A stretch of DNA of 10,040 nt from a virus. The position numbers were made by a program, and so were the translations under genes. The notes below the pieces were generated by a model. That model was not told the origin of the DNA. It ran no database searches and saw only the letters and a program-made list of their open reading frames with translations. The stretch lies in the UHGV virus genome UHGV-0351092. One strand, 5' to 3'. Position 1 is the stretch's first letter. Every line of letters begins with the position of its first letter. Below, piece by piece: positions 5,670-10,040 of the stretch.

Positions 5670-7080
5670 ACAGTGGGCGCACATCATCACCGTCAATAGC
5701 GATTACGCCGTCACCTTCCAGCTTGTACAGCCAGCGCCGGAAGTTTTTCATCTCATACCCCAGCTTTTTCATGTCATCGCGCAACAACGGAATAGTGCAT
5801 TTATCTCCGCGTTGCGTGCGTGAACGGATACAGCCCCATAGTGCGGCGTGATTCTCCGTCTTGTTCCCGGCTTCCTCGATGCGATCCAGTTCAACTGGCG
5901 GACGGGGCTTATCCTCCAGCACCAACGACGTGATTAACTCCCCGCCTTCATCCTTGAAAAGCTCAACCTCGCGCAAATCGCAAGCCATTTCTTTCAATTC
6001 CTCCGCATCCTTCATCTTGGTACATGCGATAACCAGGGCTTCACTGCCTGCACCTTCACGGCGTATCCGGTACTCTGCATCCAGTGCTGCACGAAACGCA
6101 CTGGAACCGCGCGCACCCTTTGTTTCGTCCTTGCCGGAATGGTGAATTACCAGCACTGTAGCGCCTGTACGCCGTTTCAGTTCGTCACATCCATGGACAA
6201 ATGCCCCCATATCCCGCGCATCATTTTCATCGCTGCCACCAAAGCAACGCGCCAGAGTATCCAGAATAATCATGCGTACAGGTTTACCCGTTTCCTGCTC
6301 AACCTGTCGGGCAGCAATAACCATTTCATCAACATCACTCGGTGCGGCCGGAAAAATTGGACGATTTACCAGGTACAGATTTTTCACCTGCTCACTGTTC
6401 ACCAGTTCCCATGCCTTGATACGACGAGGAACACCGATCCCGCCCTCACCAACGACATACATAACCGCACCATGTACAACCCGGCGACCTCCCCACGGGA
6501 TACCGGTAGCAACATGACATGCCCACGAACACGCAAGGAACGACTTATAAGAACCGCTCGCACCGTATGTGCTACATAGCGAATTAGCCGGAATCACGCC
6601 CTTAACTACATAGCTAAGCTGTGAATCATATCCTTCCGATCCAATGCTCATTGGTAGTGTGGTTTTTCGCTGGCTGTATTGCTCGTCAGTAAGCATTTCT
6701 TCGTGCTCTGCCTGTTCGCGGATTCGTTGCAGGTAATCGCGCCAGTTCTCCGGCTCCCGGTCGGTGATGCCTTTGTATAATTTCGCCTCCTGTACGCCAG
6801 CCAGCGCCAGTTTTTCAGCGATAGCATTGATCTGGATTGGTTCGATCTCCCCCGCGAGATAGACACGCGCAAAGCGGCGTTCATCGTCGACAATGCGGAT
6901 ATTCACCAGGTCTGCCAGTTGCTTTGGCCCCAGGTAAACAGGTGGTACGTTATCGCCGTGTTTTCGTCCTTCGCTTTCAATCCAGTGTTGAGCATGGGAG
7001 TAAGCGTCCGTCCCGGCAAAAATGATTACCTCGGTGAATTTATCCTTCGGCTGATATTTTAAATTCGGTGCGTTTTTCAC
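5668..7080 (-). CDS. replication protein: RepA/DnaB-like (RecA-fold, AAA_25-type) helicase with an N-terminal domain of unknown function
   Basis: ORF-track 470 aa. GTG start at 7080-7078 preceded by GGGAGGT with a 5-nt spacer. P-loop-like YGASGSYKSF, Walker B-like RMIILDTL, and VLVIHHSGKD typical of RepA-type helicases. Start overlaps the upstream stop as GTGA; iterons lie immediately downstream. Confidence 0.8.
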   Translation of the reverse strand: MKNAPNLKYQPKDKFTEVIIFAGTDAYSHAQHWIESEGRKHGDNVPPVYLGPKQLADLVNIRIVDDERRFARVYLAGEIEPIQINAIAEKLALAGVQEAKLYKGITDREPENWRDYLQRIREQAEHEEMLTDEQYSQRKTTLPMSIGSEGYDSQLSYVVKGVIPANSLCSTYGASGSYKSFLACSWACHVATGIPWGGRRVVHGAVMYVVGEGGIGVPRRIKAWELVNSEQVKNLYLVNRPIFPAAPSDVDEMVIAARQVEQETGKPVRMIILDTLARCFGGSDENDARDMGAFVHGCDELKRRTGATVLVIHHSGKDETKGARGSSAFRAALDAEYRIRREGAGSEALVIACTKMKDAEELKEMACDLREVELFKDEGGELITSLVLEDKPRPPVELDRIEEAGNKTENHAALWGCIRSRTQRGDKCTIPLLRDDMKKLGYEMKNFRRWLYKLEGDGVIAIDGDDVRPL

Positions 7081-7367
7081 TTCTTACCTCCCGCAACCAA
7101 CATTGCCCGGATTTTTTTAATATTCGTGGCTGCACGTCTTGCCACTGCCTGTTGTTTGTTTTCAACCAGAATAAAATCACGCTCAAACTGACGGCGCGGC
7201 ATTACGCAGTCATATTCGTAAGCCTCACGGCGGTAGGTGATATTGCCTGGCGTAACGTGACGAATAACCACTCGTCCCCCACGTCTGGTGTCGCGGTAAA
7301 TATCGCCGTGTCTGATTTCAGGCCGAGCGGGGCCGCTGGCAGTAAAGCCAGAATTTTTCTTTTTCAT
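7077..7367 (-). CDS. small basic hypothetical protein (96 aa)
   Basis: ORF track; ATG at 7367 preceded by AGGAAA; stop overlaps the helicase GTG start (GTGA). Lys/Arg-rich termini. No family recognised. Confidence 0.6.
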   Translation of the reverse strand: MKKKNSGFTASGPARPEIRHGDIYRDTRRGGRVVIRHVTPGNITYRREAYEYDCVMPRRQFERDFILVENKQQAVARRAATNIKKIRAMLVAGGKK

Positions 7368-7371
7368 GGTT

Positions 7372-7572
7372 TTATTTTCCTGTCAGCAGTTCCGATTTTA
7401 TTTCCGCACGAATACAAAGTTCAGAAAAAAATTCAGGAGAACCAACAATCTCATTACTTTTCAGTCGGCATTGTGATTTCACTTTCCCTTTATCCAGGTA
7501 AACCAGTACGCGTCCGGTGAAATCATCTGGCACACTCAGGGTAATTGTCATTGTTGCTTGCTGATTATCCAT
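7372..7572 (-). CDS. small hypothetical protein (66 aa) carrying one copy of a ~37-aa FTG...G.V.S..R module
   Basis: ORF track; ATG at 7572 preceded by GGGGGTGA; 8-nt overlap with the upstream gene (ATGGATAA). Shares the motif DDFTGRVLVYLDKGKVKSQCRL...GSPEFFSEL with both halves of the adjacent 121-aa protein. Confidence 0.6.
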   Translation of the reverse strand: MDNQQATMTITLSVPDDFTGRVLVYLDKGKVKSQCRLKSNEIVGSPEFFSELCIRAEIKSELLTGK

Positions 7573-7930
7573 GATTCACCCCCTGAATAACCTGATAACC
7601 GCAACTGGTCAGCAATTCGATAAATTCCGGCAGTGTTCCGAAACAGCAATTATCACGCATACGTTCGCGGGATACCTCAACGCCGTTTTCGTAGTGACTC
7701 ACCATGCGTCCGGTAAAATGCAGATCATCATCGTGATGGCACGTTGACGGCTTAATCAGTCGCGCACGTTCTGCCAGCTCCAGCAATGCTTCAACACTTC
7801 CGGCAATTGCACCATCCGGCAGGCGATAATTACTTACCACGCGTCCATTCTCCACATTGACCAGTAGCTGCCCGGTAAATTTCTCATCAAACTGAATGCT
7901 GTTAAGGTCAGAAATTGACAGGTTATGCAT
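7565..7930 (-). CDS. hypothetical protein (121 aa) built from two tandem copies of the same ~37-aa module
   Basis: ORF track; ATG at 7930 preceded by AGGAGGTG with a 5-nt spacer; 8-nt overlap with the upstream gene (ATGCATAA). Internal repeats EKFTGQLLVNVENGRVVSNYRL...GSVEALLEL and LHFTGRMVSHYENGVEVSRERM...GTLPEFIEL. Confidence 0.65.
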   Translation of the reverse strand: MHNLSISDLNSIQFDEKFTGQLLVNVENGRVVSNYRLPDGAIAGSVEALLELAERARLIKPSTCHHDDDLHFTGRMVSHYENGVEVSRERMRDNCCFGTLPEFIELLTSCGYQVIQGVNHG

Positions 7931-8288
7931 GGTGCACCTCCTGGCGAATACGGGCGGCGAATACCATCACGCAGCCATCAGGAGATTGCTGGCGTGCTTC
8001 CTGTTCGCTGGTGGCCTCGATGTGAATCACGCGCGGTTGTGCCGTACTCAGGGCGATAAAACGCCAGATAAAATTGTTTTCGCATTTCTGAATAAACAGC
8101 GTGTTTTCTTCGCGCCCTTTCCATGTTGCCGAGATATAGCCCATGCCATTGAGCATCTCGCAGGCATCAACCAGCGTATCAGCGGCTACGTGTACAGTGT
8201 TTTTACCGTCAGCTATGCAATCACGGTGCACCGCCAGGAAGGTGTATATAAATTTAGGGTGAGTTTGGGTATGCTGTGTTCCAGCCAT
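7923..8288 (-). CDS. hypothetical protein (121 aa); first gene of the minus-strand operon downstream of the divergent control region
   Basis: ATG at 8288-8286 preceded by GAGGT with a 7-nt spacer. Translation MAGTQHTQTHPKFIYTFLAVHRDCIADGKNTVHVAADTLVDACEMLNGMGYISATWKGREENTLFIQ... Corresponds to the C-terminal 121 aa of the 501-aa ORF-track entry, whose upstream part is antisense to the plus-strand RHH gene. No family recognised. Confidence 0.6.
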   Translation of the reverse strand: MAGTQHTQTHPKFIYTFLAVHRDCIADGKNTVHVAADTLVDACEMLNGMGYISATWKGREENTLFIQKCENNFIWRFIALSTAQPRVIHIEATSEQEARQQSPDGCVMVFAARIRQEVHHA

Positions 8289-8487
8289 AATCGTTACCTC
8301 ATTTAACGGTTTGGTTAGAAGCCCCGTTACTGCTCCAACAGTGCGGGGCTTCGTCGTTTCAATTGCTGAATTGCATGTATCAGCCCTTGTGGTATTCAGA
8401 TTACATTTTGGTGAATACCATTTCAAGTCTTTTTTGGTATTCACTTTTGTATTACACTGCATCCCGTTATTAATCGGAGGTGCAAAC
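8289..8487. promoter_or_regulatory. divergent control region with operator-like inverted repeats and a GC-rich stem-loop
   Basis: TGGTATTCA (8390-8398) and its exact reverse complement TGAATACCA (8412-8420) are separated by 13 bp; a third TGGTATTCA lies at 8436-8444. Stem-loop GAAGCCCCG (8318-8326) / CGGGGCTTC (8344-8352). Sits between the minus gene start at 8288 and the plus gene start at 8488. Promoter hexamers could not be placed reliably by eye. Confidence 0.5.
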
Positions 8488-8793
8488 ATGTCCACGAGTT
8501 CTGTTAACAATAAGTCACAGCAACTGAATGCCAGATTTCCACATGAAGTAGTGAGTGGCATTGAGGCATCCCTACAGCCAGGGGAAACTAAAGCGAATTT
8601 TATAGTTACGGCTGTACGCGGTGAGATCGCCCGCCGCCAGGCAGAAGGAAGCGGAGAAAATCCCCTGGTTTCTTCGCTCGATGCGCTGGCGCAGGTGGAA
8701 AAAATCGGAGTCAAAGCTGCCGAGGAGATCGGGCAGCTCGTCACCGTCGCACGTGAAGAACTCCAGCGCCGCAAGGCCAAAGAATCAGAATAA
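8488..8793 (+). CDS. Arc/Mnt-like ribbon-helix-helix DNA-binding protein (putative repressor), 101 aa
   Basis: ATG at 8488 preceded by GGAGGT (8476-8481) with a 6-nt spacer; TAATAA double stop at 8791-8796. N-terminus KSQQLNARFPHEVVSGIEASLQPGETKANFIVTAVRGEIARRQ aligns with the P22 Arc pattern (QFNLRWPREV...GRSVNSEIYQRV, recalled from memory). The ORF-track 8311..8793 entry is an in-frame upstream extension with no SD. Confidence 0.7.
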   Translation: MSTSSVNNKSQQLNARFPHEVVSGIEASLQPGETKANFIVTAVRGEIARRQAEGSGENPLVSSLDALAQVEKIGVKAAEEIGQLVTVAREELQRRKAKESE

Positions 8794-8850
8794 TAACTAT
8801 CATCGCCGTGGTGTGAGGAACTCCGGCGCATTGCTTTACAGGTACACAGA

Positions 8851-9030
8851 ATGACCAACAAAGAATCAACCAAAACACCATCACCAACTCGTAAGAGACG
8901 ACGCAAAAATATAGCGCATGAACATGAATCAGAAAGATTCGCACCTTGTTCGTTTGCTCTTGAGAAATTCCTTAAAGAGCACAGGAAAAAGCTCTCGTTG
9001 CAAACCTTGGAACGAACCAAATCTGACTGA
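8851..9030 (+). CDS. possible small basic protein (59 aa), weakly supported
   Basis: ATG at 8851 with only a weak AGGT 4 nt upstream; translation MTNKESTKTPSPTRKRRRKNIAHEHESERFAPCSFALEKFLKEHRKKLSLQTLERTKSD; TGA at 9028-9030. Below the ORF-track cutoff. Confidence 0.3.
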   Translation: MTNKESTKTPSPTRKRRRKNIAHEHESERFAPCSFALEKFLKEHRKKLSLQTLERTKSD

Positions 9031-9033
9031 TCA

Positions 9034-9428
9034 CATTGCCCACCAGCCGCAAATGTGGCATTGTTGGTGATGCGTTCAAGTATGTAGCTTTTCCACTGGC
9101 GGCTCTCTACGGTCGCCTTTGTTTTATCCAGAACGAAATCAGACATCAGATTGATCAGCACCTGGCGACCTGACAAAATCGCATCAGTCGCGCCACCAGC
9201 AAAATTTTTTGCTTTCCGGACGGCGTGACCAACGGCATTTTGCAGCAAAATATTCTGCATTTCTGGCGTGCTGTAGTAACGGTGATCAGCGCCTTCACTC
9301 TGTGCGACCACAACGCTATAATCTGCCTCGTAGACAGTAAGCAATATGGCGCAGTAGGCTATTCGTTCACAAAGGCGCTCCGGCAACGGGGCGCTTTCTC
9401 TTTTTGTAACGGTCAGAGCGTTACACAT
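9034..9428 (-). CDS. candidate gene with a strong start but no in-frame stop (3' boundary approximate); possibly frameshifted or disrupted
   Basis: ATG at 9428-9426 preceded by GGAGGA with an 8-nt spacer; overlaps the antirepressor stop as ATGTGTAA. First ~130 aa look protein-like (...AKNFAGGATDAILSGRQVLINLMSDFVLDKTKATVESRQWKSYILERITNNATFAAGG). Beyond ~9040 the frame stays open to 7923 with Ser/Cys/Arg-rich antisense-type composition. A TGA exists at 9031-9033 but in another frame. Confidence 0.3.
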
Positions 9429-10040
9429 GGCTGTTTTCCTCCATGCGACGGGCTAACCAACGCTGCGAAAGACGAATTAATTCAGCCTTCCGCTGGTGGT
9501 AGTCCTGGCCTAACTCAATCAGCGTGATATTGCTCTGCTCAAGGTAAGAAAGGTGCTCAAGCTGCAACGTGCTCATGTGGTCGCGTGGTTCGCCTGTAAT
9601 GCCGTTCGCCAGTGCCCACTGTTTTGCAGTCATGCCACCCAGCACGATACGCGCCAGCATGTTCGCTTCCGTGGTGTAGTGGTGCTGGAGTGTGTTTTTA
9701 CCCAGTTCAGCCCGGTACGCCTCCAGCGCGGCACACATTGGCTTAAAGTAGCTGGCAACTGTGATACGGGCTTTCAGTTCCCGGCGTAACGCTGCGGAAC
9801 GAACAGGCGCAACCTTGTGTAGCTCCTCCTCGCATTTGATAAAGTACTGGCGAACGGCGCGGCCCTGTTCGGTACGTTCGACCATCGCCAGTTCTTTCGC
9901 CATGTTCACTGTGATGATGTACTCAAGAGCGGTTTGCTGGCGAGATTTTGCGCTCACCGGATCGGGTCGGCTCAAATATTCAACAACCTCATAATCCACG
10001 CCTTCCGTGAACCCGTATTCTTCAATGCGCCCCTTGATCC
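9421..10040 (-). CDS. phage antirepressor-like protein (AntA-type domain), N-terminus beyond the window
   Basis: Frame is open from the window end (10040) to TAA at 9421-9423; the ORF-track start at 9999 is an internal GTG. Segment EGVDYEVVEYLSRPDPVSAKSRQQTALEYIITVNMAKELAMVERTEQGRAVRQYFIKCEEEL matches the AntA-type signature MAKELAMV.R...GR..R.YFI..E. Confidence 0.7.
   Translation of the reverse strand, partial: IKGRIEEYGFTEGVDYEVVEYLSRPDPVSAKSRQQTALEYIITVNMAKELAMVERTEQGRAVRQYFIKCEEELHKVAPVRSAALRRELKARITVASYFKPMCAALEAYRAELGKNTLQHHYTTEANMLARIVLGGMTAKQWALANGITGEPRDHMSTLQLEHLSYLEQSNITLIELGQDYHQRKAELIRLSQRWLARRMEENSHV

What the first reader, a model, noticed from the sequence alone, without database searches (positions are those of the whole stretch)
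7372..7930. Three copies of a ~37-aa FTG...G.V.S..R...GS.E...EL module spread over two adjacent overlapping genes
The 66-aa protein has one copy and the neighbouring 121-aa protein two tandem copies of the same module (DDFTGRVLVYLDKGKVKSQCRL / EKFTGQLLVNVENGRVVSNYRL / LHFTGRMVSHYENGVEVSRERM, each followed by G(S/T).E..(E)L). This indicates duplication and fusion of a small domain within one early operon. I cannot assign it to a named family. Small duplicated early-operon proteins in phages are often host-takeover or anti-defence factors.
Basis: seen in the sequence. Interest (0 to 1): 0.6.

Follow-up and report, generated by a model that had tools for sequence, protein, structure and literature searches.

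The report
Satellite-borne copies of a prophage antirepressor
The three repeated modules are real and belong to the family of small proteins (FsoA, GfoA, Rem) that switch on dormant prophages by disabling their repressors; here they sit, one single and one fused tandem pair, in the early operon of an E. coli phage satellite, which suggests the satellite can wake up neighbouring prophages.

Summary
Observation confirmed. The 66-aa protein A (7372-7572, -) has one copy and the 121-aa protein B (7565-7930, -) two tandem copies of one domain. All three pairwise similarities beat 20,000 shuffles. The unit is about 54-61 aa, not 37.

A and B fall in PHROG 340 (labelled unknown function), together with three experimentally characterised small antirepressors: FsoA of Salmonella prophage Fels-1, a close homologue of GfoA of Gifsy-1, and Rem of the E. 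coli Qin prophage. A precomputed faint hit on B homologues is to Pfam PF27490, "Rem". These proteins bind CI-type prophage repressors and release them from DNA.

The window is not a phage. It is a PICI-type satellite island, and the genes form a translationally coupled operon: Icd-like, B, A, DUF4222, helicase.

Best reading: A and B are satellite-encoded antirepressors acting in trans on repressors of co-resident, possibly helper, prophages. B would be a single-chain version of the antirepressor dimer. Homology is shown; the target and the activity are inferred.

The duplication is old, and module-to-module recombinants circulate in E. coli. Verdict: new variant of a known kind, moderate interest.

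The parts
7565..7930 (-). Gene B, 121 aa: tandem two-module member of the FsoA/GfoA/Rem small-antirepressor family (phrog_340)
   Evidence: ORF. phrog_340 at E 8.3e-29 with 2 stretches. Two HMM domains. Close homologues carry a faint precomputed hit to PF27490 'Rem'.
7748..7930 (-). Module B1 (B residues 1-61)
   Evidence: HMM domain 1, 71.7 bits, i-E 4.3e-24. 33% identity to FsoA over 39 aa.
7574..7732 (-). Module B2 (B residues 67-119). It lacks the N-terminal strand; a His/Asp-rich linker precedes it.
   Evidence: HMM domain 2, 68.1 bits, i-E 5.8e-23. 36% identity to FsoA over 47 aa.
7372..7572 (-). Gene A, 66 aa: single-module member of the same family
   Evidence: phrog_340 at E 2.1e-17. 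HMM 89.8 bits. 33% identity to FsoA over 55 aa, 34.7 bits. AlphaFold2 model with pLDDT 89.3: beta-hairpin 21-37, helices 46-55 and 60-64.
7923..8288 (-). Icd-like gene (121 aa), first gene of the operon. Its stop overlaps the start of B by 8 nt (ATGCATAA), with AGGAGGTG just upstream.
   Evidence: NCBIfam NF033153 phage_ICD_like at E 6.1e-23. RefSeq annotation of the homologous island. Junction sequence.
7077..7367 (-). DUF4222 gene directly downstream of A. This neighbour is conserved next to tandem B-type genes in distant satellites.
   Evidence: Pfam PF13973 at E 1.4e-19. Same synteny in Salmonella and in a metagenomic satellite.
5668..7080 (-). AAA_25 RepA-like replicative helicase; its GTG start overlaps the DUF4222 stop
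   Evidence: Pfam PF13481 at E 3.8e-44. Junction sequence.
8289..8440 (-). Structured untranslated leader upstream of the Icd-like gene, with several stem-loops including a 9-bp GC-rich hairpin
   Evidence: RNA fold -45.3 kcal/mol, z = -5.4 against shuffles. No Rfam family at the gathering score or at E <= 1 apart from two chance-level hits.
8488..8793 (+). Divergently transcribed YlcI/YnfO (DUF3950-type) small gene
   Evidence: Annotation of homologous islands. PF13132 on the equivalent Pectobacterium gene. ORF; the internal ATG start was read from the translation.
9421..10040 (-). AntA/AntB-type (large) antirepressor-family gene, cut by the end of the window
   Evidence: Pfam PF08346 AntA at E 1.4e-6. 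Annotation.

Best explanation
A and B are satellite-encoded members of the small antirepressor family typified by FsoA (Fels-1), GfoA/GfhA (Gifsy-1/-3) and Rem (Qin).

Proposed mechanism:
- When the island's early operon (Icd-like, B, A, DUF4222, helicase) is transcribed, ribosomes pass from one gene to the next through 8-nt overlaps.
- The B and A proteins bind dimeric CI-type repressors of co-resident lambdoid prophages, most plausibly the short non-cleavable GfoR/GtgR/DicA type, and take them off their operators.
- Those prophages are thereby derepressed. For a satellite this would secure or boost expression of helper functions, in the way that epsilon of P4 derepresses P2.
- Characterised antirepressor-repressor complexes behave as A2B2. 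The two-module protein B is therefore read as a covalent 'single-chain dimer' whose two diverged halves could contact one repressor dimer, or two different repressors. A would act as a homodimer.

What is shown: homology, domain architecture, operon structure, distribution.
What is inferred: repressor binding, the identity of the target, the stoichiometry, and the benefit to the satellite.
For: (1) Family membership.
- phrog_340 is hit by A (2e-17), B (8e-29, two stretches), FsoA (1e-26), the GfoA-like SEN34_55 (6e-21) and Rem (4e-21).
- hhalign of the 52-sequence module profile gives 97.2% (E 4e-11) against GfoA-like and 95.2% (E 2.6e-8) against Rem.
- The module HMM scores FsoA at 91 bits.
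- Direct BLASTP of A against FsoA: 33% identity over 55 aa.

(2) Identity of the characterised proteins.
- Fels-1 STM0898.2n is FsoA. Primers le154 (MNSQQMM) and le162 (EAGIRFEEISNVG plus the FLAG tag) in Table S1 of PMC3121763 match its two ends.
- The gfoA 3' primer maps to SEN34_55, which lies directly after dinI.

(3) Function of family members, from the papers.
- They bind repressors, and the repressor then dissociates from DNA.
- The complexes elute at a size consistent with an A2B2 heterotetramer.
- Rem derepresses the DicA-controlled promoter dicBp 165-fold (PMC10448788).

(4) Context.
- Single-module homologues sit in the early-left operons of lambdoid prophages that have cleavable S24-type repressors. 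Such phages do not need an antirepressor for their own induction.
- Other homologues sit in the same slot of PICI-type satellites of E. coli, Salmonella, Pectobacterium and Dickeya.
- Icd-like followed directly by a coupled antirepressor-family gene has the same order as icd followed by ant in the P1 immI operon (established knowledge; junction).

(5) Fusions.
- One relative has a Bro-N domain followed by the module (P0133).
- A PHROG annotated 'anti-repressor' weakly matches the module at its C-terminal end.
Against: - No experiment exists on A, B or any satellite-borne member.
- A and B are only about 33-36% identical to FsoA and more distant from GfoA and Rem, so target specificity cannot be transferred.
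- There is no LexA box and no recognisable control signal at the operon.
- GftA itself is not significantly similar to the profile (17%).
- The AlphaFold2 model of A is a monomer with no fold match. The model of B is poor, with pLDDT 52. Dimerisation and the single-chain-dimer idea are therefore untested.
- In Ragunathan et al., three other candidates (YpjJ, YeeT, YkfH) had no activity on dicBp. They were picked by altered-parameter BLASTp starting from FsoA, and I did not test whether they belong to this family. Loose sequence similarity to FsoA did not predict antirepressor activity on that target.
- Integrated PICIs are thought to be switched on by an already induced helper, so the benefit of inducing a helper is not obvious in that situation.
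Confidence: 0.6

Rival explanations
1. A and B act on the satellite's own circuitry. They would inactivate an island-encoded repressor, for example the divergent YlcI/YnfO-type protein, or another island regulator. This would lock the island into its induced state, and no other prophage would be the target.
For: - The genes are the first products after Icd-like in the island's early operon and face a divergent small gene.
- GfoA, GfhA and Rem act on the repressor of their own prophage (PMC3121763, PMC10448788).
Against: - No GfoR/DicA-type or S24-type repressor gene is seen in the island.
- The closest characterised relative, FsoA, plays no apparent role in induction of its own phage.
- Gram-negative PICIs are described as AlpA-activated rather than repressor-locked (PMC11773190; also established knowledge).
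Confidence: 0.15
2. This is the first reader's reading: generic host-takeover or anti-defence factors that bind a host or defence protein. The antirepressor fold would simply be re-used as a protein-binding scaffold.
For: - The genes occupy a cassette-like, variable slot among many small unknown ORFs in early operons.
- The proteins are mildly acidic (family median pI 5.7).
- Recombinant and swapped alleles are common.
Against: - No PADLOC match.
- No known anti-defence family is matched.
- All characterised homologues target phage repressors.
Confidence: 0.12
3. Accessory factors for satellite DNA replication, working with DUF4222 and the primase or helicase.
For: The order tandem B-type gene, DUF4222, primase or helicase is conserved in E. 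coli, Salmonella and a distant metagenomic satellite, even where the replicase type differs.
Against: - In lambdoid prophages the family sits in the left (recombination and accessory) operon, far from the replication genes.
- Characterised members have no replication role.
Confidence: 0.06
4. An antitoxin-like partner of a neighbouring toxin, that is a type II toxin-antitoxin pair.
For: - In 78 of about 120 Klebsiella-type prophage loci the FsoA orthologue is directly followed by a 72-aa protein.
- In a fused protein call (P0263) that 72-aa protein carries the ParE_like domain PF24732.
- The same domain lies two genes downstream of the family member in a Dickeya prophage.
Against: - The association is confined to one prophage lineage.
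- ParE_like is absent from the window, from all satellites examined and from several prophages.
- FsoA has a demonstrated antirepressor activity.
Confidence: 0.03

Closest known systems
FsoA, the antirepressor of Salmonella prophage Fels-1 (STM0898.2n, 78 aa; Lemire et al. 2011, PMC3121763)
   Same: - Same PHROG (340).
- 33-36% identity to A, B1 and B2 over the whole module.
- Same FTGR...NG hairpin followed by a helix.
- Encoded in an early operon that is expressed only after the element is switched on.
- Acts, or is inferred to act, in trans on another element's repressor.
   Different: - FsoA is a single-module protein in a complete lambdoid prophage. Here the host element is a satellite, and one of the two genes is a tandem two-module fusion.
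- FsoA's target (GtgR) is known. The targets of A and B are unknown.
GfoA, GfhA and GftA, the LexA-controlled antirepressors of the Gifsy prophages
   Same: - A GfoA-like protein is in the same PHROG, and hhalign gives 97% against the module profile.
- Small size.
- Shares the C-terminal GY.VTPP motif of the family consensus.
- Forms complexes with repressor dimers whose size fits A2B2.
   Different: - The Gifsy genes lie after dinI under LexA control. No LexA box is present here.
- GftA is too diverged to be detected by the profile.
Rem of the E. coli K-12 cryptic prophage Qin, antirepressor of DicA (Ragunathan et al. 2023, PMC10448788); namesake of Pfam PF27490
   Same: - Same PHROG.
- hhalign 95%.
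- Rem also carries a partial extra hairpin before the full module, so internal duplication recurs in this family.
   Different: Rem is one full module plus an N-terminal half module (83 aa), lies in a defective prophage, and has a known target (DicA).
Epsilon of satellite P4 (derepresses helper P2 by binding its C repressor); from established knowledge
   Same: The proposed logic is the same: a satellite-encoded early protein that inactivates the repressor of a resident helper prophage. It is encoded upstream of the satellite's primase gene.
   Different: No homology was detected or claimed. A tblastn search of the phage collection with B found nothing. This is a functional analogy only.
The P1/P7 immI operon (c4 RNA, icd, ant1/2); from established knowledge
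   Same: An Icd-family gene sits directly upstream of, and is translationally coupled to, an antirepressor-family gene. A structured leader lies upstream.
   Different: - The antirepressor here is unrelated to P1 Ant.
- No C4 antisense RNA was detected by Rfam.

Membership tests
FsoA/GfoA/Rem small antirepressors (phrog_340; Pfam PF27490 'Rem') | Significant sequence or profile similarity to characterised members | tested here: met
   - phrog_340: A 2e-17, B 8e-29, FsoA 1e-26, GfoA-like 6e-21, Rem 4e-21.
- Module HMM against FsoA: 91 bits.
- hhalign: 97.2% against GfoA-like, 95.2% against Rem.
- The precomputed PF27490 hit on B homologues is only 'faint', and the local Pfam copy lacks that model.
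FsoA/GfoA/Rem small antirepressors (phrog_340; Pfam PF27490 'Rem') | Small single-domain protein of about 65-85 aa | tested here: met
   A (66 aa) fits. B (121 aa) is two such domains in tandem and so departs from the known architecture.
FsoA/GfoA/Rem small antirepressors (phrog_340; Pfam PF27490 'Rem') | Encoded outside the immunity region, either in an SOS/LexA-controlled unit or in an early operon that is derepressed on induction | tested here: inconclusive
   The genes lie in the early operon of a satellite. No LexA box is present. How the operon is controlled is unknown.
FsoA/GfoA/Rem small antirepressors (phrog_340; Pfam PF27490 'Rem') | Binds a CI-type repressor and releases it from DNA, which derepresses a prophage | not testable with these tools
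   Needs reporter, induction and binding assays.
FsoA/GfoA/Rem small antirepressors (phrog_340; Pfam PF27490 'Rem') | Two antirepressor protomers per repressor dimer (A2B2) | not testable with these tools
   Only monomer predictions were possible. A: pLDDT 89, no fold match. B: pLDDT 52.
P1-type immI operon (c4, icd, ant) | icd-family gene translationally coupled to the downstream antirepressor gene | tested here: met
   Icd-like domain at E 6e-23. 8-nt ATGCATAA overlap with a Shine-Dalgarno sequence inside the upstream gene.
P1-type immI operon (c4, icd, ant) | C4-type antisense RNA upstream | tested here: not met
   No Rfam hit at the gathering score, and nothing relevant at E <= 1. The leader is nevertheless strongly structured (z = -5.4).
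P1-type immI operon (c4, icd, ant) | Antirepressor homologous to P1 Ant (ANT/KilAC domains) | tested here: not met
   A and B have no Pfam ANT, Bro-N or AntA hit. A separate AntA gene lies upstream at 9421 to beyond 10040.
Gram-negative PICI-type phage satellite (context) | Integrase at a tRNA gene, AlpA-type regulator, primase or replicase, no full virion gene set, about 10-15 kb | tested here: met
   The homologous island in NZ_CP122719 has: integrase next to tRNA-Gly, an HTH regulator, AntA, Icd-like, B, A, DUF4222, primase, ProQ, PerC, DUF2213. The same plan, with AlpA, is seen in Pectobacterium and Dickeya. It matches the description of E. coli PICIs in PMC11773190. Helper dependence was not tested.
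Type II antitoxin | Adjacent cognate toxin gene | tested here: not met
   No toxin family lies next to A or B. ParE_like adjacency is limited to one prophage lineage.
MORN-type repeat proteins | Arrays of YxNGxxxG hairpin repeats | tested here: not met
   Long repeat proteins match only the hairpin (FTG..Y.ENG.(I/V)KS) and not the helix half. I take this as convergent hairpin similarity.

The most novel reading that the evidence does not exclude
Enterobacterial PICI-type satellites carry their own trans-acting antirepressors. One form is a fused two-module 'single-chain dimer' whose halves have diverged and recombine. With these the satellite would actively awaken resident lambdoid prophages that have non-cleavable (DicA/GfoR-type) repressors. 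That would be a P4-epsilon-like helper-induction strategy not previously described for PICIs, with specificity reshuffled by module exchange.
Probability: 0.35. Interest if true: 0.7.

Novelty: new variant of a known kind. Interest (0 to 1): 0.5.

Why it matters
If A and B are active antirepressors, this class of satellites does not merely wait for a helper phage. It could trigger prophage induction itself and couple the induction of several prophages in a polylysogen. That bears on the spread of virulence genes, since these islands also carry PerC-family regulators.

The result also gives a functional label to a large family annotated only as 'unknown function' or 'hypothetical protein'. PHROG 340 members occur in early operons of lambdoid prophages and satellites across Enterobacterales.

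Finally, the family offers a natural series for studying how repressor specificity evolves: single module, tandem fusion, and in-frame module recombinants.

Tried and rejected
- Local Pfam, NCBIfam and PADLOC scans of A and B found no family. A Pfam scan of 52 relatives found nothing.
- Sequence searches of the PDB with two profiles found nothing significant.
- AlphaFold2 of B with a shallow alignment gave pLDDT 52 and was not used.
- tblastn of B against the phage collection found no hit.
It was replaced by a degenerate DNA pattern for P(D/N)FTGR(V/I/M)-x4-E-x-G, which returned at least 120 viral loci, essentially all true family members.
- Toxin-antitoxin idea from the ParE_like neighbour: rejected as lineage-specific.
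- LexA box search: none near the operon.
- C4-type RNA: not found.
- Promoter and terminator scans: uninformative.
- MORN-like long repeat hits: judged hairpin-only false relatives.
- The exact gfoA sequence from strain 14028 could not be retrieved. A close homologue was used instead: SEN34_55, located with the published primer.

Full report
**1. The observation**

On the minus strand the window encodes a 121-aa protein B (7565-7930) and a 66-aa protein A (7372-7572). They overlap by 8 nt.

BLASTP gives:
- A vs the N-half of B: 35.4 bits (34% over 58 aa).
- N-half vs C-half of B: 29.3 bits.
- A vs the C-half of B: 23.5 bits.

None of 20,000 residue shuffles reached the observed Smith-Waterman score in any of the three comparisons; the observed scores lie 8-15 sd above the shuffle mean.

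An HMM built from 52 diverse relatives finds exactly three domains in a six-frame scan of the window: B 1-61, B 67-119 and A 1-65.

The repeat is therefore real. The unit is about 54-61 aa rather than 37. The FTG-to-FTG period in B is 54 codons. Only the FTG codons remain similar at the DNA level, so the duplication is ancient.

**2. The surroundings**

The region is a chromosomal island of the Gram-negative PICI type, not a phage.

In a 96%-identical E. coli locus the order is: tRNA-Gly, integrase, hypothetical, HTH regulator, AntA, (divergent YlcI/YnfO), Icd-like, B, A, DUF4222, primase, ProQ/FinO, PerC, DUF2213.

The window has the same plan, with an AAA_25 helicase in place of the primase.

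Pectobacterium and Dickeya islands have the same architecture. There a chain of 62-80-aa overlapping ORFs lies between Icd-like and the primase, and one of those ORFs is a family member. This matches published descriptions of E. coli PICIs (PMC11773190).

The junctions show tight translational coupling from Icd-like through to the helicase:
- Icd-like to B: AGGAGGTGCACCATGCATAA.
- B to A: GGGGGTGAATCATGGATAA.

The B+A region occurs in 437 of 5426 complete E. coli genomes, always on the chromosome.

**3. The family**

Close homologues are all annotated 'hypothetical'.

An exhaustive HMMER search with a module profile found 94 proteins. Most are 56-90-aa single-module proteins with the consensus h-T-h-x-V-x-P-D-F-T-G-R-V-L-V-Y-h-E-N-G-K-V-x-S-x-x-x-L-R-D-D-E-h-V-G-T-L-E-x-F-h-E-L-A-R-x-A-G-Y-x-V-x-P-P. 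A few have two modules.

A profile search of the 5.8-billion-protein set found 302 relatives, and every listed hit that carries an organism name is from Enterobacterales apart from one Vibrio parahaemolyticus entry on a 444-nt contig.

PHROGs places both A and B in phrog_340, labelled 'unknown function'.

A degenerate DNA pattern retrieved at least 120 viral contigs, essentially all true members. In lambdoid prophages of Klebsiella, Citrobacter, E. coli, Dickeya and Salmonella the gene lies in the early-left operon, between the CI-type repressor and xis/int.

**4. The link to function**

A precomputed Pfam hit on B homologues turned out to be PF27490, 'Rem'.

- E. coli K-12 Rem (Qin prophage, 83 aa) aligns to the module profile with hhalign probability 95.2% and is in phrog_340. 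Ragunathan et al. showed that Rem is an antirepressor that relieves DicA repression of dicBp 165-fold. They found it by PSI-BLAST from the Salmonella antirepressors GfoA and FsoA (PMC10448788).
- The Fels-1 gene STM0898.2n scores 91 bits with the module HMM. It is FsoA itself: the published primers for PBAD-fsoA and fsoA::3xFLAG encode MNSQQMM and EAGIRFEEISNVG, which are its exact termini.
- The gfoA 3' primer maps to the gene after dinI in phage SEN34. That protein matches the profile at 97.2% and is in phrog_340.
- GftA is too diverged to detect.

Lemire et al. showed four things (PMC3121763):
- These small proteins bind the repressors and make them leave the DNA.
- The complexes elute at a size consistent with an A2B2 heterotetramer.
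- fsoA lies in the Fels-1 left operon under control of the cleavable FsoR.

**5. Structure**

AlphaFold2 of A with the 52-sequence alignment gives pLDDT 89.3. The model has an extended N-terminal segment, a beta-hairpin (21-37) and helices at 46-55 and 60-64.

It has no significant match in the PDB or BFVD.

The chance-level Foldseek hits include several intertwined dimers (ICP0, TonB C-terminal domain, CsrA). This hints at, but does not show, a protomer that needs a partner.

The model of B was poor. The single-chain-dimer reading of B rests on the published size of the complexes, not on a model.

**6. Evolution**

In a rough neighbour-joining tree of modules (about 60 positions), A, B1 and B2 fall in three different clades, each with relatives from other taxa.

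A 42%-identical tandem protein (P0107) has orthologous first and second modules. It lies in a different satellite, again followed by DUF4222 and a primase. The tandem form is therefore an established satellite architecture.

Other tandem proteins seem to have a different second module. Rem has an extra half module. Some prophages carry two adjacent single-module genes with the same 8-nt overlap. Duplication recurs in this family.

E. coli populations hold in-frame recombinants:
- P0050: B1 N-terminus joined to B2 at FTG, exactly one 54-aa period deleted.
- P0068: B1 N-terminus joined to A.
- Several out-of-register deletions.

In-frame bias may partly reflect the need to keep translational coupling to the downstream genes, so these variants are not proof of function.

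**7. Best explanation and rivals**

I conclude that A and B are satellite-borne members of the FsoA/GfoA/Rem antirepressor family.

The most likely action is trans-inactivation of repressors of co-resident, possibly helper, prophages, by analogy with FsoA cross-talk and with P4 epsilon. Overall confidence is about 0.6. Homology alone is about 0.95.

Rivals:
- Action on the island's own regulator (0.15).
- A generic host-takeover or anti-defence binder (0.12).
- A replication accessory (0.06).
- An antitoxin (0.03).

The order Icd-like then antirepressor gene, with coupling, resembles icd then ant in P1 immI. No C4 RNA was found, although the leader is strongly structured. No LexA box is present.

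**8. Novelty**

The family and its activity are known. The following were not found in the literature searched:
- its presence in PICI-type satellites;
- the fused tandem architecture;
- the module recombinants.

PHROG labels the family 'unknown function' and RefSeq annotates these genes as 'hypothetical protein'.

I rate this a new variant of a known kind, of moderate interest. It is readily testable with existing reporter systems.

Noticed in passing
window 7915-7950 and 7557-7592; also L123 1873-2874, L124 6020-7449, L126 6211-7434: The small ORFs of the satellite early operons are joined by a recurring junction: GAGGTG/GGGGTG, 3-5 nt, then ATG-N-N-N-TAA with an 8-nt overlap. Unrelated proteins therefore end in ...EV(H/S)HA or ...GVNHG, and the next protein starts MHN, MDN or MRD. 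The C-terminal peptides seem to be dictated by the embedded Shine-Dalgarno sequence and start codon. The junction could also serve as a site for cassette exchange.
   Followed up: partly
window 8289-8440 (-): The leader upstream of the Icd-like gene folds into several stem-loops (-45.3 kcal/mol, z = -5.4). It includes a perfect 9-bp GC-rich hairpin (GAAGCCCCG...CGGGGCUUC) about 40 nt before the start codon. No Rfam family matches. It may be a regulatory RNA element analogous to P1 C4 or P4 CI.
   Followed up: partly
window 7923-9428 (-): The 501-aa ORF listed here is a chance read-through. Homologous annotated islands show the real genes to be Icd-like (7923-8288, -) and the divergent YlcI/YnfO gene (8488-8793, +).
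   Followed up: yes
window 5668-7080 vs L001 10309-12081, L124 8089-10782: The replicase module is swapped between related islands: an AAA_25 RepA-like helicase here and in Salmonella, and a Zn-ribbon/Toprim/DUF927 primase elsewhere. The upstream DUF4222 gene is kept in the E. coli and Salmonella islands examined and in a distant metagenomic satellite (L141), but not in the Pectobacterium and Dickeya islands.
   Followed up: no
L123 2066-2299 and 2650-2874; L124 6382-7449; L130 4794-4991: Other cassettes of the same arrays form their own small helical families. One has the motif A.AVL.VWL and is present three times in one Pectobacterium island and once next to the family member in a Dickeya prophage. 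Another (FL(I/M)NT...I.IA.DYA) is inserted between B and A in many E. coli islands. None has a known function.
   Followed up: no
L099 3582-3800 and 77 other viral loci; P0263: In Klebsiella-type lambdoid prophages the FsoA orthologue is followed directly by a 72-aa protein. In a fused protein call (P0263) that protein carries the ParE_like domain PF24732, and some phage records annotate it as 'mRNA interferase'. Upstream is a conserved 118-121-aa protein (phrog_1737), which is also present in Fels-1 as STM0898.3n.
   Followed up: partly
window 4376-5202 (-): The island carries a ProQ/FinO-domain gene (4660-5202) overlapping a PerC-family regulator gene (4376-4663). PerC-like genes of PICIs have been linked to regulation of the LEE virulence island (PMC11773190).
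   Followed up: no
P0052 (196 aa): A natural variant fuses the N-terminal part of the AntA gene to module B2. This implies a deletion of about 1.5 kb that removes the AntA C-terminus, YlcI/YnfO, Icd-like and module B1. P0133 is a separate case: a Bro-N domain fused to one module.
   Followed up: no
NC_010391.1 3494-3730 (L136 4001-4237): The experimentally defined fsoA gene of Fels-1 is still annotated 'hypothetical protein' (STM0898.2n) in the phage record, and its PHROG (340) is labelled 'unknown function'. The annotation could be updated.
   Followed up: yes
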